Positions 7,775 through 16,654 of a stretch of DNA of 18,643 bases are shown piece by piece; positions within the stretch are counted from its first letter, which is position 1, and every line of letters begins with the position of its first letter. The notes under the pieces are model-generated. The model ran no database searches, was not told the DNA's origin, and was given only the letters and a program-made list of their open reading frames with translations. This stretch comes from Candidatus Thorarchaeota archaeon. GTDB taxonomy: Archaea; Asgardarchaeota; Thorarchaeia; Thorarchaeales; Thorarchaeaceae. The translations under genes were made by a program, and so were the position numbers. The stretch covers positions 1-18,643 of the forward strand of contig PRDI01000092.1 in assembly GCA_003345595.1 (NCBI GenBank). The letters run 5' to 3'.

Positions 7775-9919
7775 TCAGTTCACGGCATAGCTCTGCGGGA
7801 CTGGAACACTCACAGTCTTGGTAGTGTGAAGCCGTGTCACATGGTATGGAGCAAAGGCAACGCCACCGGCATGGTAGAACTTGCTGAACCATTCTACAAA
7901 GTGAAGCCTGAGTGCGTGCATGAAGGCCAAGAGACCCTCGAGCATTCCCACGATTATTGAACCCAAGACAGCCCCAACCACAGGAAGATAGGCACCAGAA
8001 GGGATGAGTTCAACACCAAAGATCGAGAGCTCAGAGAAAGTGATGACTATGGATTCGTTCAGAGAGATGAAGATCCCGCTGAGTATTATGTGCACTGTGT
8101 TGAGAGCGAAAATACGAGCATAGCTGACGGTATGACTGATTGTACCTATGGCGTTCTCGAAGAATATGACAATGCCGTCCATTCCACCCTTTGCAGATGA
8201 TATAGCCATCAGAACAAATGGTACAATGAATGTGAGCAGTGTGAAAACGAGAGGACTGATTGGAACCATTGGATAGATACCATTGTTGCCTGTACCGTAT
8301 CCGATACCGGCAATCGGGATCCAGAGGTACACTGTTCCTGTAGTGCTAAACCACTGTCCTACTGTGCTGTAACTCACGCCAAAGACCAGATTGATGAAAC
8401 CCAGGTACATCCAGACGTAGGACAATGCCACCAAGGCCTCACGGTAAGACCGGTGTTTGAGCTTGTTGTAGAGATTCAGCAGGATTCCTAGGGTGATGTG
8501 AAGTGCACCAATCTCAATCGATAGTTTCAGCATGTGTGCCGAGCGATACGGATTGGCCACGCCAGCAATCTTGTGAGCGAACAGCGGCCAGATGGGCTCT
8601 ATCACAGTTTCAGCCCCAAAGAAGCTCCCGAAGAGCAGGCCGCCAAGCATTGCAAACAGGCCCATCATCATAAGACCGGAAGCACCTGTCTGCAGATATC
8701 CGAGGGTCGACCCCCAGTTCTGGTGCTTCCTCTTTGCTCTCCATGCAACGAGACCTACCAATAGAATCAGAAAGCCCTGCCCGACATCCGCAAAGATGAA
8801 ACCGAATATCAGAGGGAATGAGATGAACATCAGCTTTGTAGGATCTAGGTCGTGTTTGGATGGCACACCGTATGCCGTGACAACACCCTCGGTTGTCTTC
8901 ATGAATGAGGGGTTGTCAAGATATGTGGGAGCTTCCTCTTCGGCAAAGTCAGGGCGGTCGAACTTCACTTCAAGTGCCGAGCCCACCCTCTCCTGCAGCA
9001 AGGATTCAAAACGTTCCTCAGTCCCTTCAGGAATCCAGCCCCATACCTTCAGTGAGTGTTCCGTGTAAGCAAAGTAGGACTTGATTTCTATACGACGACG
9101 TTCGATATCGAGTGTTTCCCAAGCGGCCATGACCTTGGGTCCCCACTCGCGAGCAACAGACTTCCTTCTGGTTTCCAGCTGCTTGAGTTCGGTTTCGAGT
9201 TCGACCATCTTCTCCTCCGCTGCACGCACTATGTCCTCCGGGAGCCCAGATGTCTTCTCGGGTACCTCAAATGGCTCGAATCCCAATGCAGAGAAGATGC
9301 GCAAGACTGCCGGCTTCTTGTCAGCTCCGACACTGACACTCGCCACTGATGTGTTCTTACGCACTGGAATCGACCTAAAAGCATAGGCACCTTCTGTGAC
9401 CTCATTCAGGCTCCACTCCAACTGACTCACGCGATTTGCGGGCACCACGCCGGCTGTTGTGAAGGTGTATTCAGTGGTGGTCAGTCTGCTGAGGTCGAGG
9501 CCTAGAGGAGCAAGTGAAACAGCCACATCTCTGATGCTTCTCTGCCGGTCCAATTCAAGCCTGACAGTGGCAATGCTCTTCTCAATCTCAAGGGCTTCGG
9601 GCTCAACTGACTTGATCACTGTGCTAACATACTCCAACGAGTCCGCGAGACTTGCGTCATTCACATCGTCCATCGTGGCTGAGTAATGATGGACATCGAG
9701 CTTCAAGAACGAAACAAGGCTGTTGTAGCGGTCCAGACCAGCGAACACGGCATCCTCGTCTCTGGACCTTTTCAGTTCAGTCACGCCGACCTGATGGCGC
9801 ACATCTATGAACTCGAAGAAACCGAACTCCTCCAGCGCCACAATCACCTGTCGCTCAAGGTCCCTGTGCGCCACCACCTTGGCAACCATCATCTTGGCAG
9901 GACTCATCGTCAGATGCAT
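7775..9919 (-). CDS. atpI: A/V-type ATP synthase subunit I (a)
   Basis: Soluble N-terminal half with WGWIP, PTYLDNP and YGVP..DLDPT motifs, FGFIFADVGQG, essential Arg in SHTVSYARIFAL, and LRLHFVEWFSKFY. ATG 9919 has SD GGTGA 8 nt upstream; the ORF track gives GTG 9931. Confidence 0.96.
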   Translation of the reverse strand: MHLTMSPAKMMVAKVVAHRDLERQVIVALEEFGFFEFIDVRHQVGVTELKRSRDEDAVFAGLDRYNSLVSFLKLDVHHYSATMDDVNDASLADSLEYVSTVIKSVEPEALEIEKSIATVRLELDRQRSIRDVAVSLAPLGLDLSRLTTTEYTFTTAGVVPANRVSQLEWSLNEVTEGAYAFRSIPVRKNTSVASVSVGADKKPAVLRIFSALGFEPFEVPEKTSGLPEDIVRAAEEKMVELETELKQLETRRKSVAREWGPKVMAAWETLDIERRRIEIKSYFAYTEHSLKVWGWIPEGTEERFESLLQERVGSALEVKFDRPDFAEEEAPTYLDNPSFMKTTEGVVTAYGVPSKHDLDPTKLMFISFPLIFGFIFADVGQGFLILLVGLVAWRAKRKHQNWGSTLGYLQTGASGLMMMGLFAMLGGLLFGSFFGAETVIEPIWPLFAHKIAGVANPYRSAHMLKLSIEIGALHITLGILLNLYNKLKHRSYREALVALSYVWMYLGFINLVFGVSYSTVGQWFSTTGTVYLWIPIAGIGYGTGNNGIYPMVPISPLVFTLLTFIVPFVLMAISSAKGGMDGIVIFFENAIGTISHTVSYARIFALNTVHIILSGIFISLNESIVITFSELSIFGVELIPSGAYLPVVGAVLGSIIVGMLEGLLAFMHALRLHFVEWFSKFYHAGGVAFAPYHVTRLHTTKTVSVPVPQSYAVN

Positions 9920-10012
9920 CTGTGGCATCACCGTAGGAAGGGAGCTTTGGCCATGGAAACGTCGGGTCGTTGCTCTTTAGACAGACCGACTGACTGTCGC
10001 GCAGTTGCCGCT

Positions 10013-10153: not shown

Positions 10154-10477
10154 ATGTGCGCAGCCGATGATGCGATAGACATCATACACGAAGCTGAAGA
10201 GAAGGCGACTAAGAGGATTCAAGAGGCTGAGATTGCTGTCAGACAGATGAGGGAACAGACTGAAGCAGAGGCCAAGCGGATTCTCCAAGAGGCTGAAAGT
10301 GAAACAAAGAAGGCAGCTGCGCTCTCCGGTTCAGACATCGCCAAACAGAAAGAAGAGATAGAGCGACGAAGCAGGAGAGACCTTGAAGCGGTCATCAACG
10401 GGATAGAAGAGTCTGCACGTAACCATCGGACAGCTGCGATCCAAGCTGTTGCCAAAATACTACTGGGGGAGAAGTAG
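10154..10477 (+). CDS. atpH: A/V-type ATP synthase peripheral stalk subunit H (G)
   Basis: 107-aa A/E/K-rich helix (AIDIIHEAEEKATKRIQEAE…AAIQAVAKILLG), directly before subunit E. SD-like GGAGTG at 10141. The ORF-track extension to 9686 is antisense to atpI and rejected. Confidence 0.82.
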   Translation: MCAADDAIDIIHEAEEKATKRIQEAEIAVRQMREQTEAEAKRILQEAESETKKAAALSGSDIAKQKEEIERRSRRDLEAVINGIEESARNHRTAAIQAVAKILLGEK

Positions 10478-10481
10478 TAGG

Positions 10482-11105
10482 ATGACCGGAGTAGAGAGCA
10501 TAGTTCAGATGATTGAAACAAAGGCGGCAGAAAAGGTAGACCAGATGACCAAGGAAGCCGAGGAACAGAGAGATCTACGGCTGAAAGACGCCAGGCAGAA
10601 GGCAGCGGCGATTGCGGAAGATATCAGGAGCAAGGCTGAGAAGGAACTCAAATCCGAACTGGCAAAGCATGAGGCAAGTATGAAGCTGAAAGCCAAATAT
10701 CTGGTGCTCGGAACGAAGGAGAAAGCCGTAAAGGATGTCCTGGAATCGGCAGTCAAGGTCGCAAAGAAGGAGATGGAGGGAAAGAAGTGCACCGATGTTC
10801 TGACGAGATTCGCTGTCGAAGGTGGCACTGCACTTGCTTCTCAAAACCTCGAAATCGTCTTCCCTGAGAAGCAGAAAGCTACCATAGACCAATCACAAGT
10901 GGCTAATGCCATATCGAAGAACCTAGGCCAGAAGGTGACCGTTTCAGTAGCCAAGGATACTGTGAGGGCATCGGGCGGCCTCATTGTCCGTTCAGGCGAT
11001 GGTTCCAAGTGGGTCGATAACACGTTCGAGGGACGAATGGAGCGACTGACCAGCCGGATGAGGGACGAGGCCGCTAGGATTCTCTTCGAGGAGAAGAGCG
11101 AGTAG
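10482..11105 (+). CDS. atpE: A/V-type ATP synthase subunit E
   Basis: N-terminal coiled coil and C-terminal SGGLIVRSGDGSKWVDNTFEGRMERL…ARILF signature. ATG lies 4 nt after the subunit H stop. Confidence 0.93.
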   Translation: MTGVESIVQMIETKAAEKVDQMTKEAEEQRDLRLKDARQKAAAIAEDIRSKAEKELKSELAKHEASMKLKAKYLVLGTKEKAVKDVLESAVKVAKKEMEGKKCTDVLTRFAVEGGTALASQNLEIVFPEKQKATIDQSQVANAISKNLGQKVTVSVAKDTVRASGGLIVRSGDGSKWVDNTFEGRMERLTSRMRDEAARILFEEKSE

Positions 11106-11180: not shown

Positions 11181-11585
11181 TCAGGTCGCAGCCATCAGCT
11201 GAGGTATGTACCCGAGTAGCAGAAAGGCAATCACTAGCCCGTAAATTGCGATTGCCTCGATGAAGACCACATAGAGTATGCTCTTACCAAAGGTTTCAGG
11301 CTTCTCTGTGATAGCTCCAAGAGACGCGGCAGCGGCCGTACCCATACCTAAAGCTGCACCAACGCCAGCAAGGCCCACGGCAAGACCCGCACCAACAGCA
11401 ATTCCAAGGATTGCCAAGCCGCCCGGATCAGTCAGGAGCGGCTCGATGATAGGCGTTGGAGATATGCTGAGAGCATTCAGGGCTGCAGAGCTAATCTGCA
11501 AAGCCAAGAATGATGTCACTGCTGCAAGCAGGGATACCCCTGCCACGAGCATAATGAAGCTAGTAGTGTATCTGTAGATTCTCAC
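11181..11585 (-). CDS. atpK: A/V-type ATP synthase proteolipid subunit K (c), single hairpin with extra N-terminal hydrophobic segment
   Basis: Gly/Ala-rich helix GAGLAVGLAGVGAALGMG, loop EKPE, and ion-binding Glu110 in FIEAIAIYG. GTG start with SD GGAGG. Confidence 0.95.
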   Translation of the reverse strand: MRIYRYTTSFIMLVAGVSLLAAVTSFLALQISSAALNALSISPTPIIEPLLTDPGGLAILGIAVGAGLAVGLAGVGAALGMGTAAAASLGAITEKPETFGKSILYVVFIEAIAIYGLVIAFLLLGYIPQLMAAT

Positions 11586-11601: not shown

Positions 11602-12666
11602 TCACCATATCGTGATCATTCTTCTTATGATATCGGCTGACTCGCCTCGTTCGATCCCCACAGCAATAGACCTTATGTTCCGTATCTCGTAGAACTTCAA
11701 GGTGAAGAAACCTAACACAGTTCCTGAGTGAAACGGAAAGGCGCTCATAAGCAGTCTGACCTGCTGGGCCAAGTAGTCCTCAACCGCCATCTCGACATCG
11801 GCGAGGTCCTGGGTTTCCTCGTAGAGCCTCGCAAGTCGTCCCGCGAACTGCCCATACTTCGTCTTCTCTAGCTGGGAAAGGACTTCTCGCCAAGATGGTT
11901 GAATCCGTATTGATTCCGTGAGCATTTTCGACTTGGATGTGAACCGTATTAGCGACAAATCGATAGTGCGGGAGCCAAGCTTGAGCACAAGGGCACGTAG
12001 CATTGTCAAGACATTCCTGAGAATGACTCTGGTTTCCAGGAAACCTATGACCCTCTCTCTGTCATCAGCCGACAGTCTCTTGACAGCCTTGGCTACGGTT
12101 CTGAGAAACCACTCCTCAAGCGCTACTTCAAGCGGAGCCGTCGAGCCCAGGTCTTCGAAGGCTGGAAGCCTAGTCAGCAATGCCACCTTGATGTCACTGA
12201 ATGGTATGGCATCAACAAACTTCTGGACCGAGCCTGTGTCTACGAGCTGGGAGAACAGATCCACCTGTGCAGGGGAGGTCGGAACTGAAAAACGCAGTAT
12301 CTCATCTCGTTCGAGCCCAACATGAAGCCCGCGCACGATTGATTTCAGGCTCTCGGAGAGAAACATGCCCGTATAGGCCTGTGTGAATTCACGTACCCTG
12401 CCTGTCAGCGATCGCGCAATACTGTAACTGACTTCTGCAAAGTCCTTTGAGAGTATGATTGCGAGCTCATCGGGCGCAGGTATCCTCTGCGGGGACTCCT
12501 TGTTGACTTTCGGTCCGTAGTGCGTGTTTGCGAGGAGCTTCATGAACTCCTCGTAGCTGGTGGACTGCAAGAACCGTTCATAGTCGCCAACTGTCAGGAA
12601 TCGGGACTTGATGGCCCGGACCCGAGAGTTGACAAAACCATACTCGCTTGCAGCCTTTATGGCCAT
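11602..12666 (-). CDS. atpC: A/V-type ATP synthase subunit C (d/AC39)
   Basis: N-terminal YGFVNSRVRAIKSRFL and C-terminal KFYEIRNIRSIAVG motifs. Lies 16 bp upstream of atpK. Confidence 0.93.
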   Translation of the reverse strand: MAIKAASEYGFVNSRVRAIKSRFLTVGDYERFLQSTSYEEFMKLLANTHYGPKVNKESPQRIPAPDELAIILSKDFAEVSYSIARSLTGRVREFTQAYTGMFLSESLKSIVRGLHVGLERDEILRFSVPTSPAQVDLFSQLVDTGSVQKFVDAIPFSDIKVALLTRLPAFEDLGSTAPLEVALEEWFLRTVAKAVKRLSADDRERVIGFLETRVILRNVLTMLRALVLKLGSRTIDLSLIRFTSKSKMLTESIRIQPSWREVLSQLEKTKYGQFAGRLARLYEETQDLADVEMAVEDYLAQQVRLLMSAFPFHSGTVLGFFTLKFYEIRNIRSIAVGIERGESADIIRRMITIW

Positions 12667-12808: not shown

Positions 12809-13390
12809 ATGACTGAAGAAAGCAAGACCCCCGGTCCTAAGAGCTCGGATCTGTTTGACATTGGCAGCCTGTTCAGGAGTTCAGCCACTATAACATTCGT
12901 AGTTCAGATTGTGTCTGTCATAGTGATGCTGGGCAGCTTGGCCGCGTACTATGTGGCCGGGTTACTACCCGAGATCAGCGCAGACCTTCTTGTATTGCTG
13001 CTCCTGGTGGGCATCATGATCACGATTGTCATTTTCTTGGCTGCATTGAGCATATTTGTGCGCTTCTCAAGACGAATCAGTGATGCGGTCATCGGGCCGG
13101 GGATTGAGAGGGTCAGAATGGACACACCTCGAGTCAAAGCTGTCGTGTACATGTACGCTCTACTTGTGGCCCTCATGGGCATAACCGGCGCATATGTTTG
13201 GTACCTGATTTACAAGGACGTCCTTGGGCCCATGGTTGCCACCTCACTGTCACTGCAGGTATTCAGCTTCGCTCTAGGAGCCTTCTTCATTGCGCTTCTC
13301 ATCCAAGTCATAGTCGCAGGAGTAGGAAGGAGTGCAACAAAAGTCATCACAGAGGTGCTTGATGCAGACGACTCGGAGTTTACTGCCTAG
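12809..13390 (+). CDS. Hypothetical 4-TM membrane protein divergent from atpC
   Basis: Four hydrophobic helices arranged as two hairpins, each followed by an amphipathic segment. TATA-like TTCATATAA at ~12769. Confidence 0.8.
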   Translation: MTEESKTPGPKSSDLFDIGSLFRSSATITFVVQIVSVIVMLGSLAAYYVAGLLPEISADLLVLLLLVGIMITIVIFLAALSIFVRFSRRISDAVIGPGIERVRMDTPRVKAVVYMYALLVALMGITGAYVWYLIYKDVLGPMVATSLSLQVFSFALGAFFIALLIQVIVAGVGRSATKVITEVLDADDSEFTA

Positions 13391-13721
13391 TTTCGTTTCG
13401 ATCGTCGTCGTCCACGTCGAACTCGACGTCTTCAGTGATCTCCTCCAACGTCGGTCTATAGGTGCGCTTCATCTTTGAAGTCTTTTCCATGCCCTCGTAG
13501 AACCGAACTGTGGCGAATACACCATAGACTCCAAGTGCAAAGCCTGCGATTGCACCGATGATAGCACCCCACGTAGATCCCTGTTGTCCCCACACAGACT
13601 GGCCCACTATCTGTCCGGCGAACATGAGTGCAATCACTGTGCACGGGAGCTCAGAAGCCACTGCAACCCACCGTCCCATGCCTTCAAAGCCACTGCTACT
13701 CTGCTGCCCGGACTGACTCAT
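13380..13721 (-). CDS. AtpZ/AtpI-like (ATPase gene1-type) 2-TM protein
   Basis: ASELPCTVIALMFAGQIVGQSVWG…WGAIIGAIAGFALGVYGVF resembles the 2-TM pattern of AtpZ/AtpI (G.L.G...G). Acidic tail. ATG 13721 is preferred over the ORF-track start at 13793. Confidence 0.62.
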   Translation of the reverse strand: MSQSGQQSSSGFEGMGRWVAVASELPCTVIALMFAGQIVGQSVWGQQGSTWGAIIGAIAGFALGVYGVFATVRFYEGMEKTSKMKRTYRPTLEEITEDVEFDVDDDDRNETRQ

Positions 13722-13837
13722 AGGTCTCTGTGCGCTTGCTATCACGAATATGAGTTTCGGTGGGCTTCTTACTTCAGAGTGTCCCTGACTCAATCCTTTT
13801 CTGTGGCTTCGACCACCGGTGAACCGAGGTAGTCGAG

Positions 13838-15130
13838 TTGAAGGTCAGCGTGAGAAATGGCAGCGGCGAGATACAGCTTGACATTCCCAAGCGGAACTTG
13901 GCCGGAGTCTATGCGCCGAAGAAGGCCCATTCGAGAACCAGCACAGCCACGGAACTTGAACGTGCCATGAACAGCCCTCACGGCCCGAGGCTCGAGGACC
14001 TTGTGATAGGCAAGAGCGTTTGTGTGCTCGTGGAGGACCACACAAGAGATGAGCCCCATATGGAGCTCCTGAGCGCAGTGGTTCCGCGGCTACGGCGCGC
14101 CAATCGAGTCCAGTTCATGATTGCCACAGGCTCACACGAGGTCAACCACCCAGCGAATCTGAAGATAGTGGACCTAGTCAAGAAAGCGGCAACCGATGCA
14201 GGGATTGAAAGATACGCGGTGAAGATAAATGACTGCCACGAGCCCGGTTTCGTCGATCTTGGGAGGACCAAGAGAGGAACCCCAGTGCTTGTGAACTCCA
14301 AAGCTGTTGGCCATGACGTTTATGTCGCACTTGCCGACATGAAGGCCCATTACTTTGCCGGCTACTCCAGTGCACTCAAGGACTTCCTCCCCGGAGTCTG
14401 TTCCTTTCAGACAATCGAAGCTAACCATGCGATGGCCCTAAATCCCAAGTCTACCTTTGGTCGACACCCGTACCATCCAGACCCGGCAAAGCGGGATAGC
14501 CCACTTGCCGACGACATGAGAGACGCCATGGAGATTATCACTAAGAATGCAAAGGTCTTCACTCTCTCAGTAATCTCAGACGAGAACAAGCTAGTCTGGA
14601 CAGAAGCGGGCAGTCTACAGCCTGTGATATCACGGGGAATTGCAGTGCTGGACGAAACTGACAGCTTCAATGTCAAGCCAACGCCCAGGATTATTGTTTC
14701 TCCTGGAGGTTACCCTCAGGACAAGAGCCTCTACCATGCGCAGCGGGCAATTGAGCTGACTAAGAACGCAGTTGCAGACGGCGGCGAGATTCTCTTCATA
14801 GCTGAGTGTAGGGATGGAGTGGCCCCAGAGGAAGCTGTCGAGAACTTCTACAACAAGCTCAAGGCTCCTCTTGATGAGGTCATTAGGTCAATCAGTGGAC
14901 AGTACCACCTCTATGAGCACAAGGCCTACAAGTTTGCAGAACTGCTCGAGAGAATCTCGGCGGTCAAGATGTACACGCTTCTAGACAGGAAGACAGTCGA
15001 GGATGTTCATCTTCAGAAAGTCGAGAACCCTCAGGCAGTCATTGATGCTTGGATTGATGAGGACCCCAAGACGAAGATACTCGTGTTCGACAAGGGCAAC
15101 AAGCTGGCGATATATCCGCTAGATGACTGA
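13838..15130 (+). CDS. larA: LarA-family (lactate racemase-like) nickel-pincer-dependent racemase/epimerase
   Basis: EDHTR, ATGSH, LGRTKRGTPV, HYFAGYSSALKDFLPG, EANH, SPGGYPQD and AECRDG motifs. TTG start with SD GAGGT. Substrate uncertain. Confidence 0.88.
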   Translation: MKVSVRNGSGEIQLDIPKRNLAGVYAPKKAHSRTSTATELERAMNSPHGPRLEDLVIGKSVCVLVEDHTRDEPHMELLSAVVPRLRRANRVQFMIATGSHEVNHPANLKIVDLVKKAATDAGIERYAVKINDCHEPGFVDLGRTKRGTPVLVNSKAVGHDVYVALADMKAHYFAGYSSALKDFLPGVCSFQTIEANHAMALNPKSTFGRHPYHPDPAKRDSPLADDMRDAMEIITKNAKVFTLSVISDENKLVWTEAGSLQPVISRGIAVLDETDSFNVKPTPRIIVSPGGYPQDKSLYHAQRAIELTKNAVADGGEILFIAECRDGVAPEEAVENFYNKLKAPLDEVIRSISGQYHLYEHKAYKFAELLERISAVKMYTLLDRKTVEDVHLQKVENPQAVIDAWIDEDPKTKILVFDKGNKLAIYPLDD

Positions 15131-15139
15131 TACTGTGAT

Positions 15140-16654
15140 CTAATCCCATGTCATGCCTGACAGTGCGGTATAGAGCCGTCTGTATCTCTCAAAACCCCTG
15201 TCATACTGTTCTCGATTAGCTGCAGCAGGACGCAGCGGCTCAAGTGGACGTACCATTCTCTCTGCTGCCTCGACAACTGACTGGAAGACTCCGACGCCCC
15301 TGCAAGCAAGTATCGCAGCTCCCAGAGCTGTAGCTTCCTCCATCGCGGTCCGGATCACTGGCACCCCCAAGACATCAGCCTGAATCTGCATCCAGGTTTC
15401 GCTACGTGCCGCACCCCCCGTGACTCGCACTTCTGAAGCGGGCAGTCCGAGTTCTCTCATCACGTCAAGATTGGTGCGAATCTCATAGGACACACCTTCG
15501 AGTATTGCCCGCATGAGGTGATTCCTTGTGTGGCCGAGCGCGAGTCCTGCGAAGACACCGCGGGCCCGAGGGTTCCAGTAGGGTGCACCTGCACCCACAA
15601 AGTGGGGGATGTGCATGACCCCTTCCGAACCGGCAGGAATCTTGCTTGCCTCCTGAGTCATTACTTCATACGGATCCACACCCCGTGCTCGGGCCTTGGC
15701 ACACTCTTCAGTCCCAAGATTGTCACGGAACCAGCGGAGTGCAGCTCCAGTTGTGAACATGCTTGCCTCAATTACGAAAGCATCTGGGACCACGTGACGA
15801 CTACACAGCACACGCTTCTTCGAATCAAGTCTAGGCGCATCTGAATACGCCAGTATGAAAGTCCCCGTTCCTGTGGTCGACTTGATGGCACCCTGTCGGA
15901 CCACGCCGACACCAAGTGCGGCACACTGTTGATCTCCACCTCCCGCGACCACGGGTGTTCCCTTTTTGAGACCACATGACTTGGCTGCTTCAACGGTGAG
16001 TTCGCCCACCTTAGTGCCGGGTGGCACTGGGTCAGGAAGCTTGTCCCTAGGGATGCCGAAGGACCCCAGAAGCTTGTCAGACCAGTTCGCCTTCTTGATG
16101 TCAAAGAGCATTGTCCGGCTCGCATTGGAGTAGTCGGTAACGGCCAGACCAGTGAGCTTGAAGATAATGAAGTCGTGGACCAGCATGAACTTGTACGTCG
16201 ACTCGAAGAAACGAGGCTCGGCCTGTTTCATCCAAAGGATCTTCGGGGCACTAAAGTATGGGTCAATGGTAAGTCCGGTGATTGAGTATATCTCATCGGG
16301 AGTGACCTGTATCCGAATCCATTCGCATTGCGGGATGGTCCTGCGGTCTTGCCAGACAATAGCACGCCTCAAAGGCATGCCTTTCTTGTCAATTGGGACT
16401 GTCGTTTCGCGCTGGTTTGTGACACTGATGCTGATGACGTCCTCCGGTTTCAGACTCTTCTCCTTCATGCACCTGGTCATGGTCCTGCACGCCGCGGCCC
16501 ACCACGTCGCTGCGTCCTGCTCGACCCACGAGGGGTTAGGGAAAAAGCTGGTGAACTCCTCATACGCCCTTGATATGACCTGCCCATTCGTGTCAAAGAT
16601 CATTGAGCGCACACCGGTCGTTCCGGCATCAATCGCTGCGACAAGCTGAGTCAT
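15140..16654 (-). CDS. FGGY-family carbohydrate kinase (glycerol kinase/xylulokinase-like)
   Basis: IDAGTTG, TNQRET, IVWQDRR, PYFSAPKILW, TDYSNASRTMLFDI, GGGDQQ, GAPYW, GGAARS and EATALGAA motifs. Confidence 0.93.
   Translation of the reverse strand: MTQLVAAIDAGTTGVRSMIFDTNGQVISRAYEEFTSFFPNPSWVEQDAATWWAAACRTMTRCMKEKSLKPEDVISISVTNQRETTVPIDKKGMPLRRAIVWQDRRTIPQCEWIRIQVTPDEIYSITGLTIDPYFSAPKILWMKQAEPRFFESTYKFMLVHDFIIFKLTGLAVTDYSNASRTMLFDIKKANWSDKLLGSFGIPRDKLPDPVPPGTKVGELTVEAAKSCGLKKGTPVVAGGGDQQCAALGVGVVRQGAIKSTTGTGTFILAYSDAPRLDSKKRVLCSRHVVPDAFVIEASMFTTGAALRWFRDNLGTEECAKARARGVDPYEVMTQEASKIPAGSEGVMHIPHFVGAGAPYWNPRARGVFAGLALGHTRNHLMRAILEGVSYEIRTNLDVMRELGLPASEVRVTGGAARSETWMQIQADVLGVPVIRTAMEEATALGAAILACRGVGVFQSVVEAAERMVRPLEPLRPAAANREQYDRGFERYRRLYTALSGMTWD

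What the first reader, a model, noticed from the sequence alone, without database searches (positions are those of the whole stretch)
12809..13721. Candidate c-ring/membrane-sector assembly factors (2-TM AtpZ/AtpI-like plus 4-TM protein) beside an archaeal A/V-type ATP synthase
Seen: next to atpC-atpK lie a 4-TM protein and a 2-TM protein with the AtpZ/AtpI-type GxxxG pattern, and their 3' ends overlap by 11 bp. Established: bacterial F-type operons often begin with a 2-TM AtpZ and a 4-TM AtpI/UncI that assist c-ring assembly. Eukaryotic V0 assembly needs the small membrane factors Vma21 (2-TM) and Vma12. Canonical archaeal A-ATPase operons are described without such genes. Inference: this pair may be an undescribed archaeal assembly module. 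If the host is Asgard, it could be a prokaryotic counterpart of V-ATPase assembly factors.
Basis: partly seen in the sequence, partly recalled or inferred. Interest (0 to 1): 0.7.

Follow-up and report, generated by a model that had tools for sequence, protein, structure and literature searches.

The report
AtpZ-like gene tied to Asgard ATPase
Of the two small membrane genes beside this Thorarchaeota ATP synthase cluster, the 2-helix one is a distant relative of the bacterial AtpZ/AtpQ accessory proteins that travels with, and dies with, the archaeal ATP synthase, while the 4-helix one is an unrelated lineage-specific membrane protein.

Summary
Window 12809-13390 (+) encodes a 193-aa 4-helix membrane protein (TM4). 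Window 13380-13721 (-) encodes a 113-aa 2-helix glycine-zipper protein (TM2). Their 3' ends overlap by 11 bp, next to atpC-atpK. The host is a Thorarchaeota (Asgard) MAG.

TM2 is linked to the ATPase.
- A profile of Thor TM2 sequences, searched against 1.84 billion proteins, retrieves genuine Pfam PF09527 (AtpZ/AtpQ) members. One of them heads a bacterial F1Fo operon.
- hhalign against such members gives 99.2% probability.
- In Odin-, Baldr-, Freya-, Atabeya-, Hermod- and other Asgard lineages a TM2 homologue lies within 1 kb of atpC. It is usually directly upstream and co-directional, sometimes overlapping atpC.
- Four Thorarchaeia genomes, representing three independent events, have lost the whole A-type ATPase. 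In all four TM2 is a decayed relic, while TM4, LarA and FGGY stay intact.

TM4 shows no ATPase link.
- It has no match to AtpI, Vma12 or any Pfam family or solved fold.
- It has paralogues away from ATPase genes.
- It survives ATPase loss.

No Vma21 similarity was detected for TM2. Verdict: TM2 is an AtpZ-family accessory or assembly protein recruited to an A/V-type ATPase. The "2-TM + 4-TM module" idea is only half right.

The parts
13380..13721 (-). TM2: 113-aa two-helix glycine-zipper protein, a divergent AtpZ/AtpQ (PF09527)-family member. It carries a conserved Glu24-x-Pro26-Cys27 in helix 1 and an acidic C-terminal tail (YxPxxEEIxEDVxF).
   Evidence: alignment, invariant residues; homology to PF09527; hairpin model; conservation; co-loss with the ATPase.
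12809..13390 (+). TM4: 193-aa four-helix membrane protein of an Asgard-restricted family with no known relatives. It is convergent with TM2 and divergent from atpC. No ATPase dependence was detected.
   Evidence: It is intact in the ATPase-less genomes.
11602..12666 (-). atpC (A/V-ATPase subunit C/d, PF01992). Across Asgard lineages it is the gene most consistently adjacent to TM2 homologues.
11181..11585 (-). atpK (proteolipid c subunit, PF00137).
10449..11105 (+). atpE (stator subunit E, PF01991).
7775..9931 (-). atpI (subunit I/a, PF01496).
13745..13753 (-). A/T-rich TATA-like element (ctcatattc) about 24-32 nt upstream of the TM2 ATG. It is a possible promoter for a leaderless or short-leader transcript. 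This is inference only.
   Evidence: sequence. The AACCTTWWATC motif of the ATPase units is not present here.

Best explanation
TM2 (13380-13721, -) is a divergent member of the AtpZ/AtpQ ('ATPase_gene1', PF09527) family of two-helix membrane proteins. In much of Asgard archaea this family has been recruited to the membrane sector of the A/V-type ATP synthase. The ancestral arrangement is TM2-atpC-atpK, or atpI-TM2-atpC-atpK. In these arrangements TM2 is co-directional with subunit C (d) and in some genomes overlaps its start. In Thorarchaeia the unrelated TM4 gene sits on the opposite strand between TM2 and atpC. Shown here: homology to PF09527, conserved linkage, and strict co-loss with the enzyme. 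Inferred: TM2 inserts as a hairpin with both termini in the cytoplasm. It would use its glycine-zipper face and the conserved membrane Glu to bind a proteolipid/subunit-C assembly intermediate, or stay as a small accessory subunit of A_O. That would promote formation or stability of the rotor (c-ring plus C), as proposed for bacterial AtpI/AtpZ-type factors. TM4 is a separate Asgard-specific four-helix membrane protein. Its function does not depend on the ATPase and it is a neighbour by lineage-specific insertion.
For: Homology:
- The Thor-only profile (A1), searched against 1.84e9 representative proteins, gave 53 hits at E<=1e-3.
- 26 of the 39 aligned hits match PF09527, best E 7e-20. 9 of 10 checked exceed its gathering score.
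- One hit (P0291) heads a canonical bacterial atpZ-(132 aa)-atpB-E-F-H-A-G operon.
- hhalign of A1 against nine such members gives 99.2% probability, E 1.8e-19, over 79 columns covering both helices and the conserved Glu.
- PF09527 hits three Thor members directly, best E 2.5e-5.
- JGI labels several homologues 'F0F1-type ATP synthase assembly protein I'.

Linkage:
- TM2 homologues lie directly upstream of atpC in Baldrarchaeia (I-TM2-C-K), Odinarchaeum yellowstonii (I-TM2-C-K, with an 8-nt TM2/atpC overlap), Freyarchaeum, and families f7, f12 and f21.
- They are convergent with I-C-K in f16 and in Hermod.
- In a 201-genome Asgard scan, about 50 of about 60 non-Thor genomes with a TM2 hit have it within 1 kb of atpC.

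Co-loss:
- G004/G019, G009 and G014 (90-98% complete) lack PF00006, PF01496 and PF01992. They keep only atpC relics.
- TM2 there is a relic with different stops, frameshifts or a ~110-bp deletion. TM4, LarA and FGGY are intact.
- A tree of flanking genes places each ATPase-less lineage as sister to an ATPase-bearing genome, which implies three independent events.
- Apparent exceptions (G001, G132, G199, G202) are explained by contig ends. All four have A/B subunits.
Against: - The window's own protein scores only 13.7 bits (E 0.066) against PF09527. That is below the 26.6-bit cut-off and comparable to generic glycine-zipper hits.
- Low-complexity membrane helices can inflate profile scores, and the PF09527 members used in hhalign were themselves picked from A1 hits.
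- In this window TM2 is not co-transcribed with atpC, and it lacks the AACCTTWWATC promoter motif of the three ATPase units.
- In G025 (sister family) TM2 is on a different contig from atpC.
- Lokiarchaeia and several other Asgard families have an ATPase but no detectable TM2, so TM2 is not universally required.
- Family f12 keeps TM2 although its c-ring is one fused 15-hairpin polypeptide. This argues against a pure c-subunit oligomerisation chaperone role.
- No physical interaction or phenotype was tested. The biochemical role of AtpZ itself is unsettled (Mg2+ uptake: Hicks 2003, as cited in PMC4453477).
Confidence: 0.75

Rival explanations
1. TM2 is a stoichiometric structural subunit of the Asgard A_O sector, a small hairpin bound to the c-ring or subunit I in the manner of V-ATPase subunits e/f. 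On this reading it is not a transient assembly factor.
For: It overlaps atpC and is co-directional with it in several lineages. It is strictly co-lost with the enzyme. It is retained even where the c-ring is a single fused polypeptide.
Against: No PF05493 (V-ATPase e) or other subunit family hit was found. The fold search was non-specific, with 7uw9_e only at E 5.4. Bacterial PF09527 proteins are not, to my knowledge, reported as subunits in solved F-ATPase structures, and no PDB chain matches the profile. Many Asgard ATPases lack TM2.
Confidence: 0.2
2. TM2 is a small cation (Mg2+/Ca2+) channel or uptake facilitator that supplies the ATPase with Mg2+, as proposed for Bacillus pseudofirmus AtpZ. 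It would not be an assembly factor.
For: It is homologous to PF09527, described as a 'putative F0F1-ATPase subunit Ca2+/Mg2+ transporter'. It has a conserved membrane-embedded Glu24 and a glycine zipper suited to oligomeric pores. PMC4453477 summarises the Mg2+ phenotype of atpZ.
Against: A general Mg2+ uptake function should stay useful after ATPase loss, yet TM2 decays each time the ATPase is lost. Its tightest coupling is to atpC.
Confidence: 0.1
3. One reading: TM2 and TM4 act together as a two-component AtpZ+AtpI-like (or Vma21+Vma12-like) assembly module for the archaeal c-ring.
For: The convergent, 3'-overlapping TM2/TM4 pair is conserved through Thorarchaeia and its sister family, even where atpC is elsewhere. 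Both proteins end in an acidic tail with a conserved Phe. Bacterial operons do pair a 2-TM AtpZ with a following ~130-aa membrane protein.
Against: TM4 is intact in all four ATPase-less genomes where TM2 is dead. TM4 is absent next to TM2 in every non-Thor Asgard lineage examined. It shows no similarity to AtpI, Vma12 or anything else. Its paralogues sit among unrelated genes.
Confidence: 0.07
4. TM2 is a generic glycine-zipper membrane protein. On this reading its PF09527 similarity is compositional and its position near ATPase genes is inherited synteny without functional meaning.
For: The window protein's Pfam hits are all sub-threshold and mixed: DUF456, Gly-zipper families, ATPase_gene1. 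Synteny among close relatives is weak evidence on its own.
Against: Linkage to atpC holds across at least ten Asgard families with different gene orders. There are three independent co-losses with different lesions. Detection with PF09527 is reciprocal.
Confidence: 0.04

Closest known systems
AtpZ (Bacillus pseudofirmus OF4) / AtpQ ('gene 1' of N-ATPase operons), Pfam PF09527 ATPase_gene1
   Same: Both are ~50-residue two-helix hairpins with GxxxG motifs at the end of helix 1 and along helix 2. Both have a conserved Glu early in helix 1 and a conserved aromatic (Y) after the last Gly. Both are encoded in a rotary-ATPase gene cluster next to membrane-sector genes. Homology is detectable by profile methods.
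   Different: TM2 is associated with an A/V-type enzyme (next to subunit C/d, K and I), not with an F- or N-type one. The Thor proteins fall below the Pfam cut-off. They carry a lineage-specific SELPC motif and a ~35-residue acidic C-terminal tail (YxPPxEEIxEDVxF) that bacterial AtpZ lacks.
AtpI/UncI (PF03899, COG3312), the c-ring assembly helper of bacterial F-ATPases
   Same: It is a small membrane protein encoded in an ATPase cluster and is proposed to act on the proteolipid ring. JGI's automatic label for some TM2 homologues is 'F0F1-type ATP synthase assembly protein I'.
   Different: No sequence relationship was found for either ORF. hhalign against E. coli AtpI gives 0.2% for TM2 and 0.1% for TM4, and there are no PF03899 hits. 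According to Dibrova et al. 2010 (PMC2881411), AtpI and AtpQ are distinct families.
Vma21 (2-TM) and Vma12/Vma22, the eukaryotic V0 assembly factors
   Same: Vma21 is also a small two-helix hairpin that acts on the proteolipid ring of a V-type enzyme. [quoted passage not shown]
   Different: No PF09446 or PF11712 hit was found at E<=0.1 in 17 TM2 or 21 TM4 sequences. No Vma21 chain appeared in the fold search. TM2 was not found in Lokiarchaeia or several other Asgard families. The resemblance is functional analogy at most.
Canonical archaeal A1AO operon (H-I-K-E-C-F-A-B-D)
   Same: Subunits I, E, K and C are present and recognisable here. A and B are on another contig of the same genome, G000:C7.
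   Different: The cluster is split and carries an extra conserved small membrane gene (TM2). That gene is not part of the textbook operon.

Membership tests
PF09527 ATPase_gene1 (AtpZ/AtpQ) | Score at or above the Pfam gathering threshold (26.6 bits) | tested here: not met
   The window protein scores 13.7 bits, E 0.066. The best Thor member has E 2.5e-5. More distant Asgard homologues do pass or nearly pass: P0253 at 28.4 bits, P0246 at 25.4 bits.
PF09527 ATPase_gene1 (AtpZ/AtpQ) | Profile-level homology to bona fide members over the whole hairpin | tested here: met
   The A1 profile retrieves proteins of which 26/39 match PF09527. 9/10 checked are above the cut-off. hhalign gives 99.2%, E 1.8e-19, over 79 columns. 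Caveat: the comparison set was drawn from A1 hits.
PF09527 ATPase_gene1 (AtpZ/AtpQ) | Two transmembrane helices with GxxxG repeats and a conserved acidic residue in helix 1 | tested here: met
   Invariant residues are E24, G36, G40, G52, G56, G60 and G64. The hairpin model has pLDDT >90 across the helices. The Glu aligns with the GLE motif of the PF09527 members.
PF09527 ATPase_gene1 (AtpZ/AtpQ) | Encoded within a rotary ATPase gene cluster | tested here: met
   It lies next to atpC/atpK/atpI across Asgard. The enzyme is A/V-type, not the F/N-type of the characterised members.
PF09527 ATPase_gene1 (AtpZ/AtpQ) | Biochemical role (Mg2+ acquisition or ATPase assembly) | not testable with these tools
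   Only genomic inference is available: co-loss with the ATPase.
AtpI/UncI (PF03899), considered for TM4 | Sequence or profile similarity to AtpI | tested here: not met
   No PF03899 hit in 21 TM4 sequences at E<=0.1. hhalign against E. coli AtpI gives 0.1%.
AtpI/UncI (PF03899), considered for TM4 | Co-occurrence with an ATP synthase | tested here: not met
   TM4 is intact in G004, G009, G014 and G019, which lack the ATPase. Paralogues lie in unrelated contexts.
VMA21 (PF09446), considered for TM2 | Sequence or profile similarity to Vma21 | tested here: not met
   PF09446 is not among the hits at E<=0.1 (17 sequences) or at E<=0.01 (40 sequences).
VMA21 (PF09446), considered for TM2 | Structural match to Vma21 in V0 assembly intermediates | tested here: inconclusive
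   Foldseek against the PDB gave no hit at E<=0.001 and no Vma21 chain in the top 50. Helical hairpins are too simple for fold searches to discriminate.
Vma12 (PF11712), considered for TM4 | Sequence or fold similarity | tested here: not met
   No Pfam hit. No PDB sequence hit. No Foldseek hit below E 0.9. The Atlas look-alikes are only unnamed Asgard clusters.

The most novel reading that the evidence does not exclude
TM2 may be an ancient, dedicated assembly chaperone or small subunit of the A/V-type rotor that predates the Asgard radiation. On this reading it plays the role that Vma21 (or subunit e) plays in eukaryotic V0 biogenesis. The AtpZ/AtpQ family would then be a universal rotor-assembly hairpin shared by F-, N- and A/V-type rotary ATPases, rather than a bacterial Mg2+ transporter.
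Probability: 0.12. Interest if true: 0.8.

Novelty: new variant of a known kind. Interest (0 to 1): 0.58.

Why it matters
To my knowledge, and in the papers searched, no accessory or assembly factor has been described for archaeal A-type ATP synthases, and the role of the AtpZ/AtpQ family is unsettled. This work shows an AtpZ-family hairpin conserved next to subunit C across Asgard classes, including the closed genomes of Odinarchaeum yellowstonii and Freyarchaeum deiterrae. It also shows that the gene decays each of the three times the enzyme was lost. That gives a concrete candidate that can be tested. It also links accessory genes of F/N-type and A/V-type enzymes, which bears on how rotary ATPase membrane sectors are built and on the pre-eukaryotic history of V-ATPase biogenesis. 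Finally, it removes a false lead: the 4-TM neighbour is not part of the system.

Tried and rejected
- Direct Pfam/NCBIfam scans of both ORFs gave only sub-threshold hits for TM2 and nothing for TM4.
- PDB sequence search with the TM2 and TM4 profiles found nothing relevant.
- Foldseek of both AlphaFold models against the PDB gave no match at E<=0.001.
- The ESM Atlas search for TM4 returned only unnamed Asgard clusters.
- hhalign of both families against E. coli AtpI gave no similarity.
There is therefore no evidence for co-regulation through that motif.
- The search for related loci on genome contigs with alignments A4 and A1 failed, because no stretch was conserved enough. Taxon names were obtained from cluster look-ups instead.
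- I looked for a TM2-like partner beside the TM4 paralogue on G000:C102. None is there; the overlapping small ORFs are not membrane proteins.
- P0252, another TM2-like hit, sits at a contig start with no ATPase gene downstream. This is uninformative.
- A complex (multimer) prediction of TM2 with K/C/I could not be run with the tools available.

Full report
**What is in the window**

The window is a whole contig (G000:C92) of an 83%-complete MAG. Close homologues of both ORFs are named Candidatus Thorarchaeota in NCBI records. The gene order, is:

- HerA-like ATPase (-), TrmI (+), wHTH (+), a 780-aa TPR-like protein (+)
- atpI 7775-9931 (-)
- atpE 10449-11105 (+), preceded by a probable H
- atpK 11181-11585 (-)
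- atpC 11602-12666 (-)
- TM4 12809-13390 (+)
- TM2 13380-13721 (-)
- a LarA-family racemase 13838-15130 (+)
- an FGGY kinase 15140-16654 (-)

The A and B subunits are on another contig, G000:C7.

TM4 is 193 aa with four long helices (pLDDT 86). TM2 is 113 aa and forms a helical hairpin with invariant G36, G40, G45, G52, G56, G60 and G64. The two stop codons overlap by 11 bp. TM2 lies on the same strand as atpC-atpK. TM4 sits on the opposite strand between them.

**Is TM2 AtpZ-like?**

On its own, the window protein gives only sub-threshold Pfam hits. These include DUF456 (E 0.003), glycine-zipper families (about 0.01) and ATPase_gene1/PF09527 (E 0.066, though covering positions 4-52 of 54).

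I built a profile of 17 Thorarchaeia sequences (A1). Searched against 1.84 billion representative proteins, it gave 53 hits at E<=1e-3.

- Of the 39 hits I aligned, 26 match PF09527, best E 7e-20.
- Nine of ten hits checked individually exceed the 26.6-bit gathering score.
- One hit, P0291 (71 bits), is the first gene of a textbook bacterial operon: AtpZ, a 132-aa ORF, then a, c, b, delta, alpha, gamma.

hhalign of A1 against nine such proteins gives 99.2% probability and E 1.8e-19 over 79 columns. The alignment spans both helices. It aligns the invariant Glu24 of TM2 with the GLE motif of AtpZ.

Detection also works in the other direction. PF09527 hits three Thor members, best E 2.5e-5. In the window's own genome, the only six-frame hit of the model is TM2.

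Two caveats apply. Glycine-rich membrane helices inflate scores. The comparison set was chosen from A1 hits. Even so, I regard membership of the PF09527 superfamily as well supported, with the Thor proteins as a divergent subfamily below the curated cut-off.

No hit to VMA21, V-ATPase e or AtpI/UncI appeared. Fold and PDB searches were uninformative.

**Linkage to the ATPase across Asgard**

Within the Thorarchaeia family the block TrmI-wHTH-TPR-atpI-E-K-C-TM4-TM2-LarA-FGGY is syntenic in about 15 genomes. That alone is weak evidence among relatives. The informative result comes from other Asgard classes, where TM4 is absent but a TM2 homologue sits in the ATPase membrane-sector cluster.

| Lineage | Arrangement |
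|---|---|
| Baldrarchaeia | atpI-TM2-atpC-atpK |
| Odinarchaeum yellowstonii (closed genome) | atpI-TM2-atpC-atpK, TM2 overlapping atpC by 8 nt |
| Freyarchaeum deiterrae (closed genome) | TM2-atpC-atpK |
| Families f7, f12, f21 | TM2-atpC |
| f16 and Hermodarchaeia | TM2 convergent with I-C-K |
| Metagenomic contigs | TM2-C-K with E-H opposite; TM2 beside I-K-C |

I scanned 201 Asgard genomes with a broader TM2 profile (A4) and with PF01992 (atpC). About 50 of the roughly 60 non-Thor genomes with a TM2 hit have it within 1 kb of atpC (coordinates compared by hand).

Lokiarchaeia (f9, 1/40) and families f5, f14, f17, f20 and f27 gave essentially no TM2 hits. Their atpC scores against PF01992 are much weaker (1e-20 to 1e-33, against 1e-45 to 1e-69). 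TM2 therefore appears to track one ATPase lineage.

**Co-loss**

Four Thorarchaeia genomes have no detectable A/B (PF00006), I (PF01496) or C (PF01992) subunit. They are G004 and G019 (one genus), G009 and G014, at 90-98% completeness. G004 and G014 keep short atpC relics with stop codons exactly where atpC should be.

In all four, the interval between TM4 and LarA holds only wreckage of TM2, and the lesions differ:

- G004: in-frame stops and loss of the central glycine zipper.
- G019 and G014: frameshifts and stops.
- G009: a ~110-bp internal deletion relative to its sister G024.

TM4, LarA and FGGY remain full-length in these genomes.

A maximum-likelihood tree of four flanking proteins places (G004, G019) next to G011, G014 next to G013, and G009 next to G024. 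All three sisters carry the ATPase and TM2. This implies three independent losses.

Genomes that seemed to break the pattern (G001, G132, G199, G202) all carry A/B subunits. What they lack is explained by contig ends.

This result separates the two ORFs. TM2 is dispensable exactly when the ATPase is gone. TM4 is not.

**TM4**

- The family is restricted to Thorarchaeia and a few other Asgard lineages, and is annotated only as hypothetical.
- No Pfam family is hit by any of 21 members at a meaningful level.
- There is no PDB sequence match, no Foldseek match below E 0.9, and no named look-alike in the ESM Atlas.
- hhalign against E. coli AtpI gives 0.1%.
- Most Thor genomes carry a second copy elsewhere. 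The copy in this genome (G000:C102) lies among an aminotransferase, a HAD hydrolase, an LRR protein and NadA, with no TM2-like neighbour.
- Distant homologues in Atabeyarchaeia and f12 are not next to ATPase genes.

Two points favour a TM2-TM4 connection. Their tight convergent junction is kept even in the sister family, where atpC is elsewhere. Both also have an acidic C-terminal tail ending in a conserved Phe. I treat these as unexplained rather than as evidence of an ATPase role.

**Mechanism**

Shown: homology to AtpZ/AtpQ, conserved adjacency to subunit C (sometimes overlapping it), and co-elimination with the enzyme.

Inferred: TM2 is a cytoplasm-in/cytoplasm-in hairpin. Its glycine-zipper surface and membrane Glu would contact the proteolipid/subunit-C rotor intermediate, either transiently (assembly factor) or permanently (small accessory subunit).

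Family f12 retains TM2 although its c subunit is one 1147-aa polypeptide with 15 hairpins. This suggests the role is not simply oligomerising c monomers. Docking of subunit C, or stabilising the ring in the membrane, fits better.

The Mg2+-uptake role reported for Bacillus AtpZ (summarised in PMC4453477) is a rival. It explains the co-loss poorly.

Dibrova et al. 2010 (PMC2881411) already noted that atpQ/PF09527 is not confined to N-ATPase operons. I found no paper describing it in A/V-type clusters or in Asgard archaea. The only prior trace is JGI's automatic label "F0F1-type ATP synthase assembly protein I" on some homologues.

**Verdict**

TM2 is a new A/V-ATPase-associated variant of the AtpZ/AtpQ family, with strong comparative-genomic evidence of functional dependence on the enzyme. 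TM4 is an unrelated neighbour. The Vma21/Vma12 homology idea has no support, and only a loose functional analogy remains.

Noticed in passing
G004:C1:386760-387026, G014:C11:6028-6267 (atpC relics); loci L027, L032, L037, L056: Four Thorarchaeia genomes (90-98% complete) lack every A-type ATP synthase subunit searched (A/B, I, C). Two of them keep atpC pseudogene relics. A tree of flanking genes indicates three independent losses. Free-living archaea without any rotary ATPase are unusual.
   Followed up: partly
L049:5875-9318 (+) (G035:C36, Asgard family f12): A single 1147-aa ORF directly after atpI carries 15 ATP-synt_C hairpin domains (PF00137, 717 bits). It is in effect a whole c-ring fused into one polypeptide, reminiscent of the multi-hairpin K subunit of Methanopyrus.
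   Followed up: partly
window 13380-13460 (TM2 tail) and 13340-13390 (TM4 tail): Both proteins end in a conserved acidic cytoplasmic tail with a conserved Phe: TM2 YxPPxEEIxEDVxF, TM4 EVLDxDDSEF. This may be a shared short binding motif. The TM4 paralogue on G000:C102 lacks it.
   Followed up: no
The 11-mer form occurs 3 times against 0.5 expected. It is absent upstream of TM2.
   Followed up: partly
G036:C1:611104-613395, G037:C1:572671-574929, G015:C30:79692-81980, G029:C22:21708-23954: A-subunit open reading frames of 1123-1169 aa have the PF00006 match split in two. This suggests intein-containing atpA genes in several Asgard genomes.
   Followed up: no
L077 (G051:C17:124800-128200): Asgard family f15 has two atpK genes and two TM2-like ORFs side by side next to one atpC. 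This is a local duplication of the c-subunit/TM2 pair.
   Followed up: no
Asgard families f9 (Lokiarchaeia), f5, f14, f17, f20, f27: These lineages have atpC genes that score far lower against PF01992 (1e-20 to 1e-33) and no detectable TM2 homologue. This suggests two distinct ATPase lineages within Asgard archaea.
   Followed up: no
L035:11174-11734 (-) (G012:C5): One Thorarchaeia genome has a tandem, diverged second TM4 copy (35% identity) between TM4 and atpC. It lacks the acidic tail.
   Followed up: no
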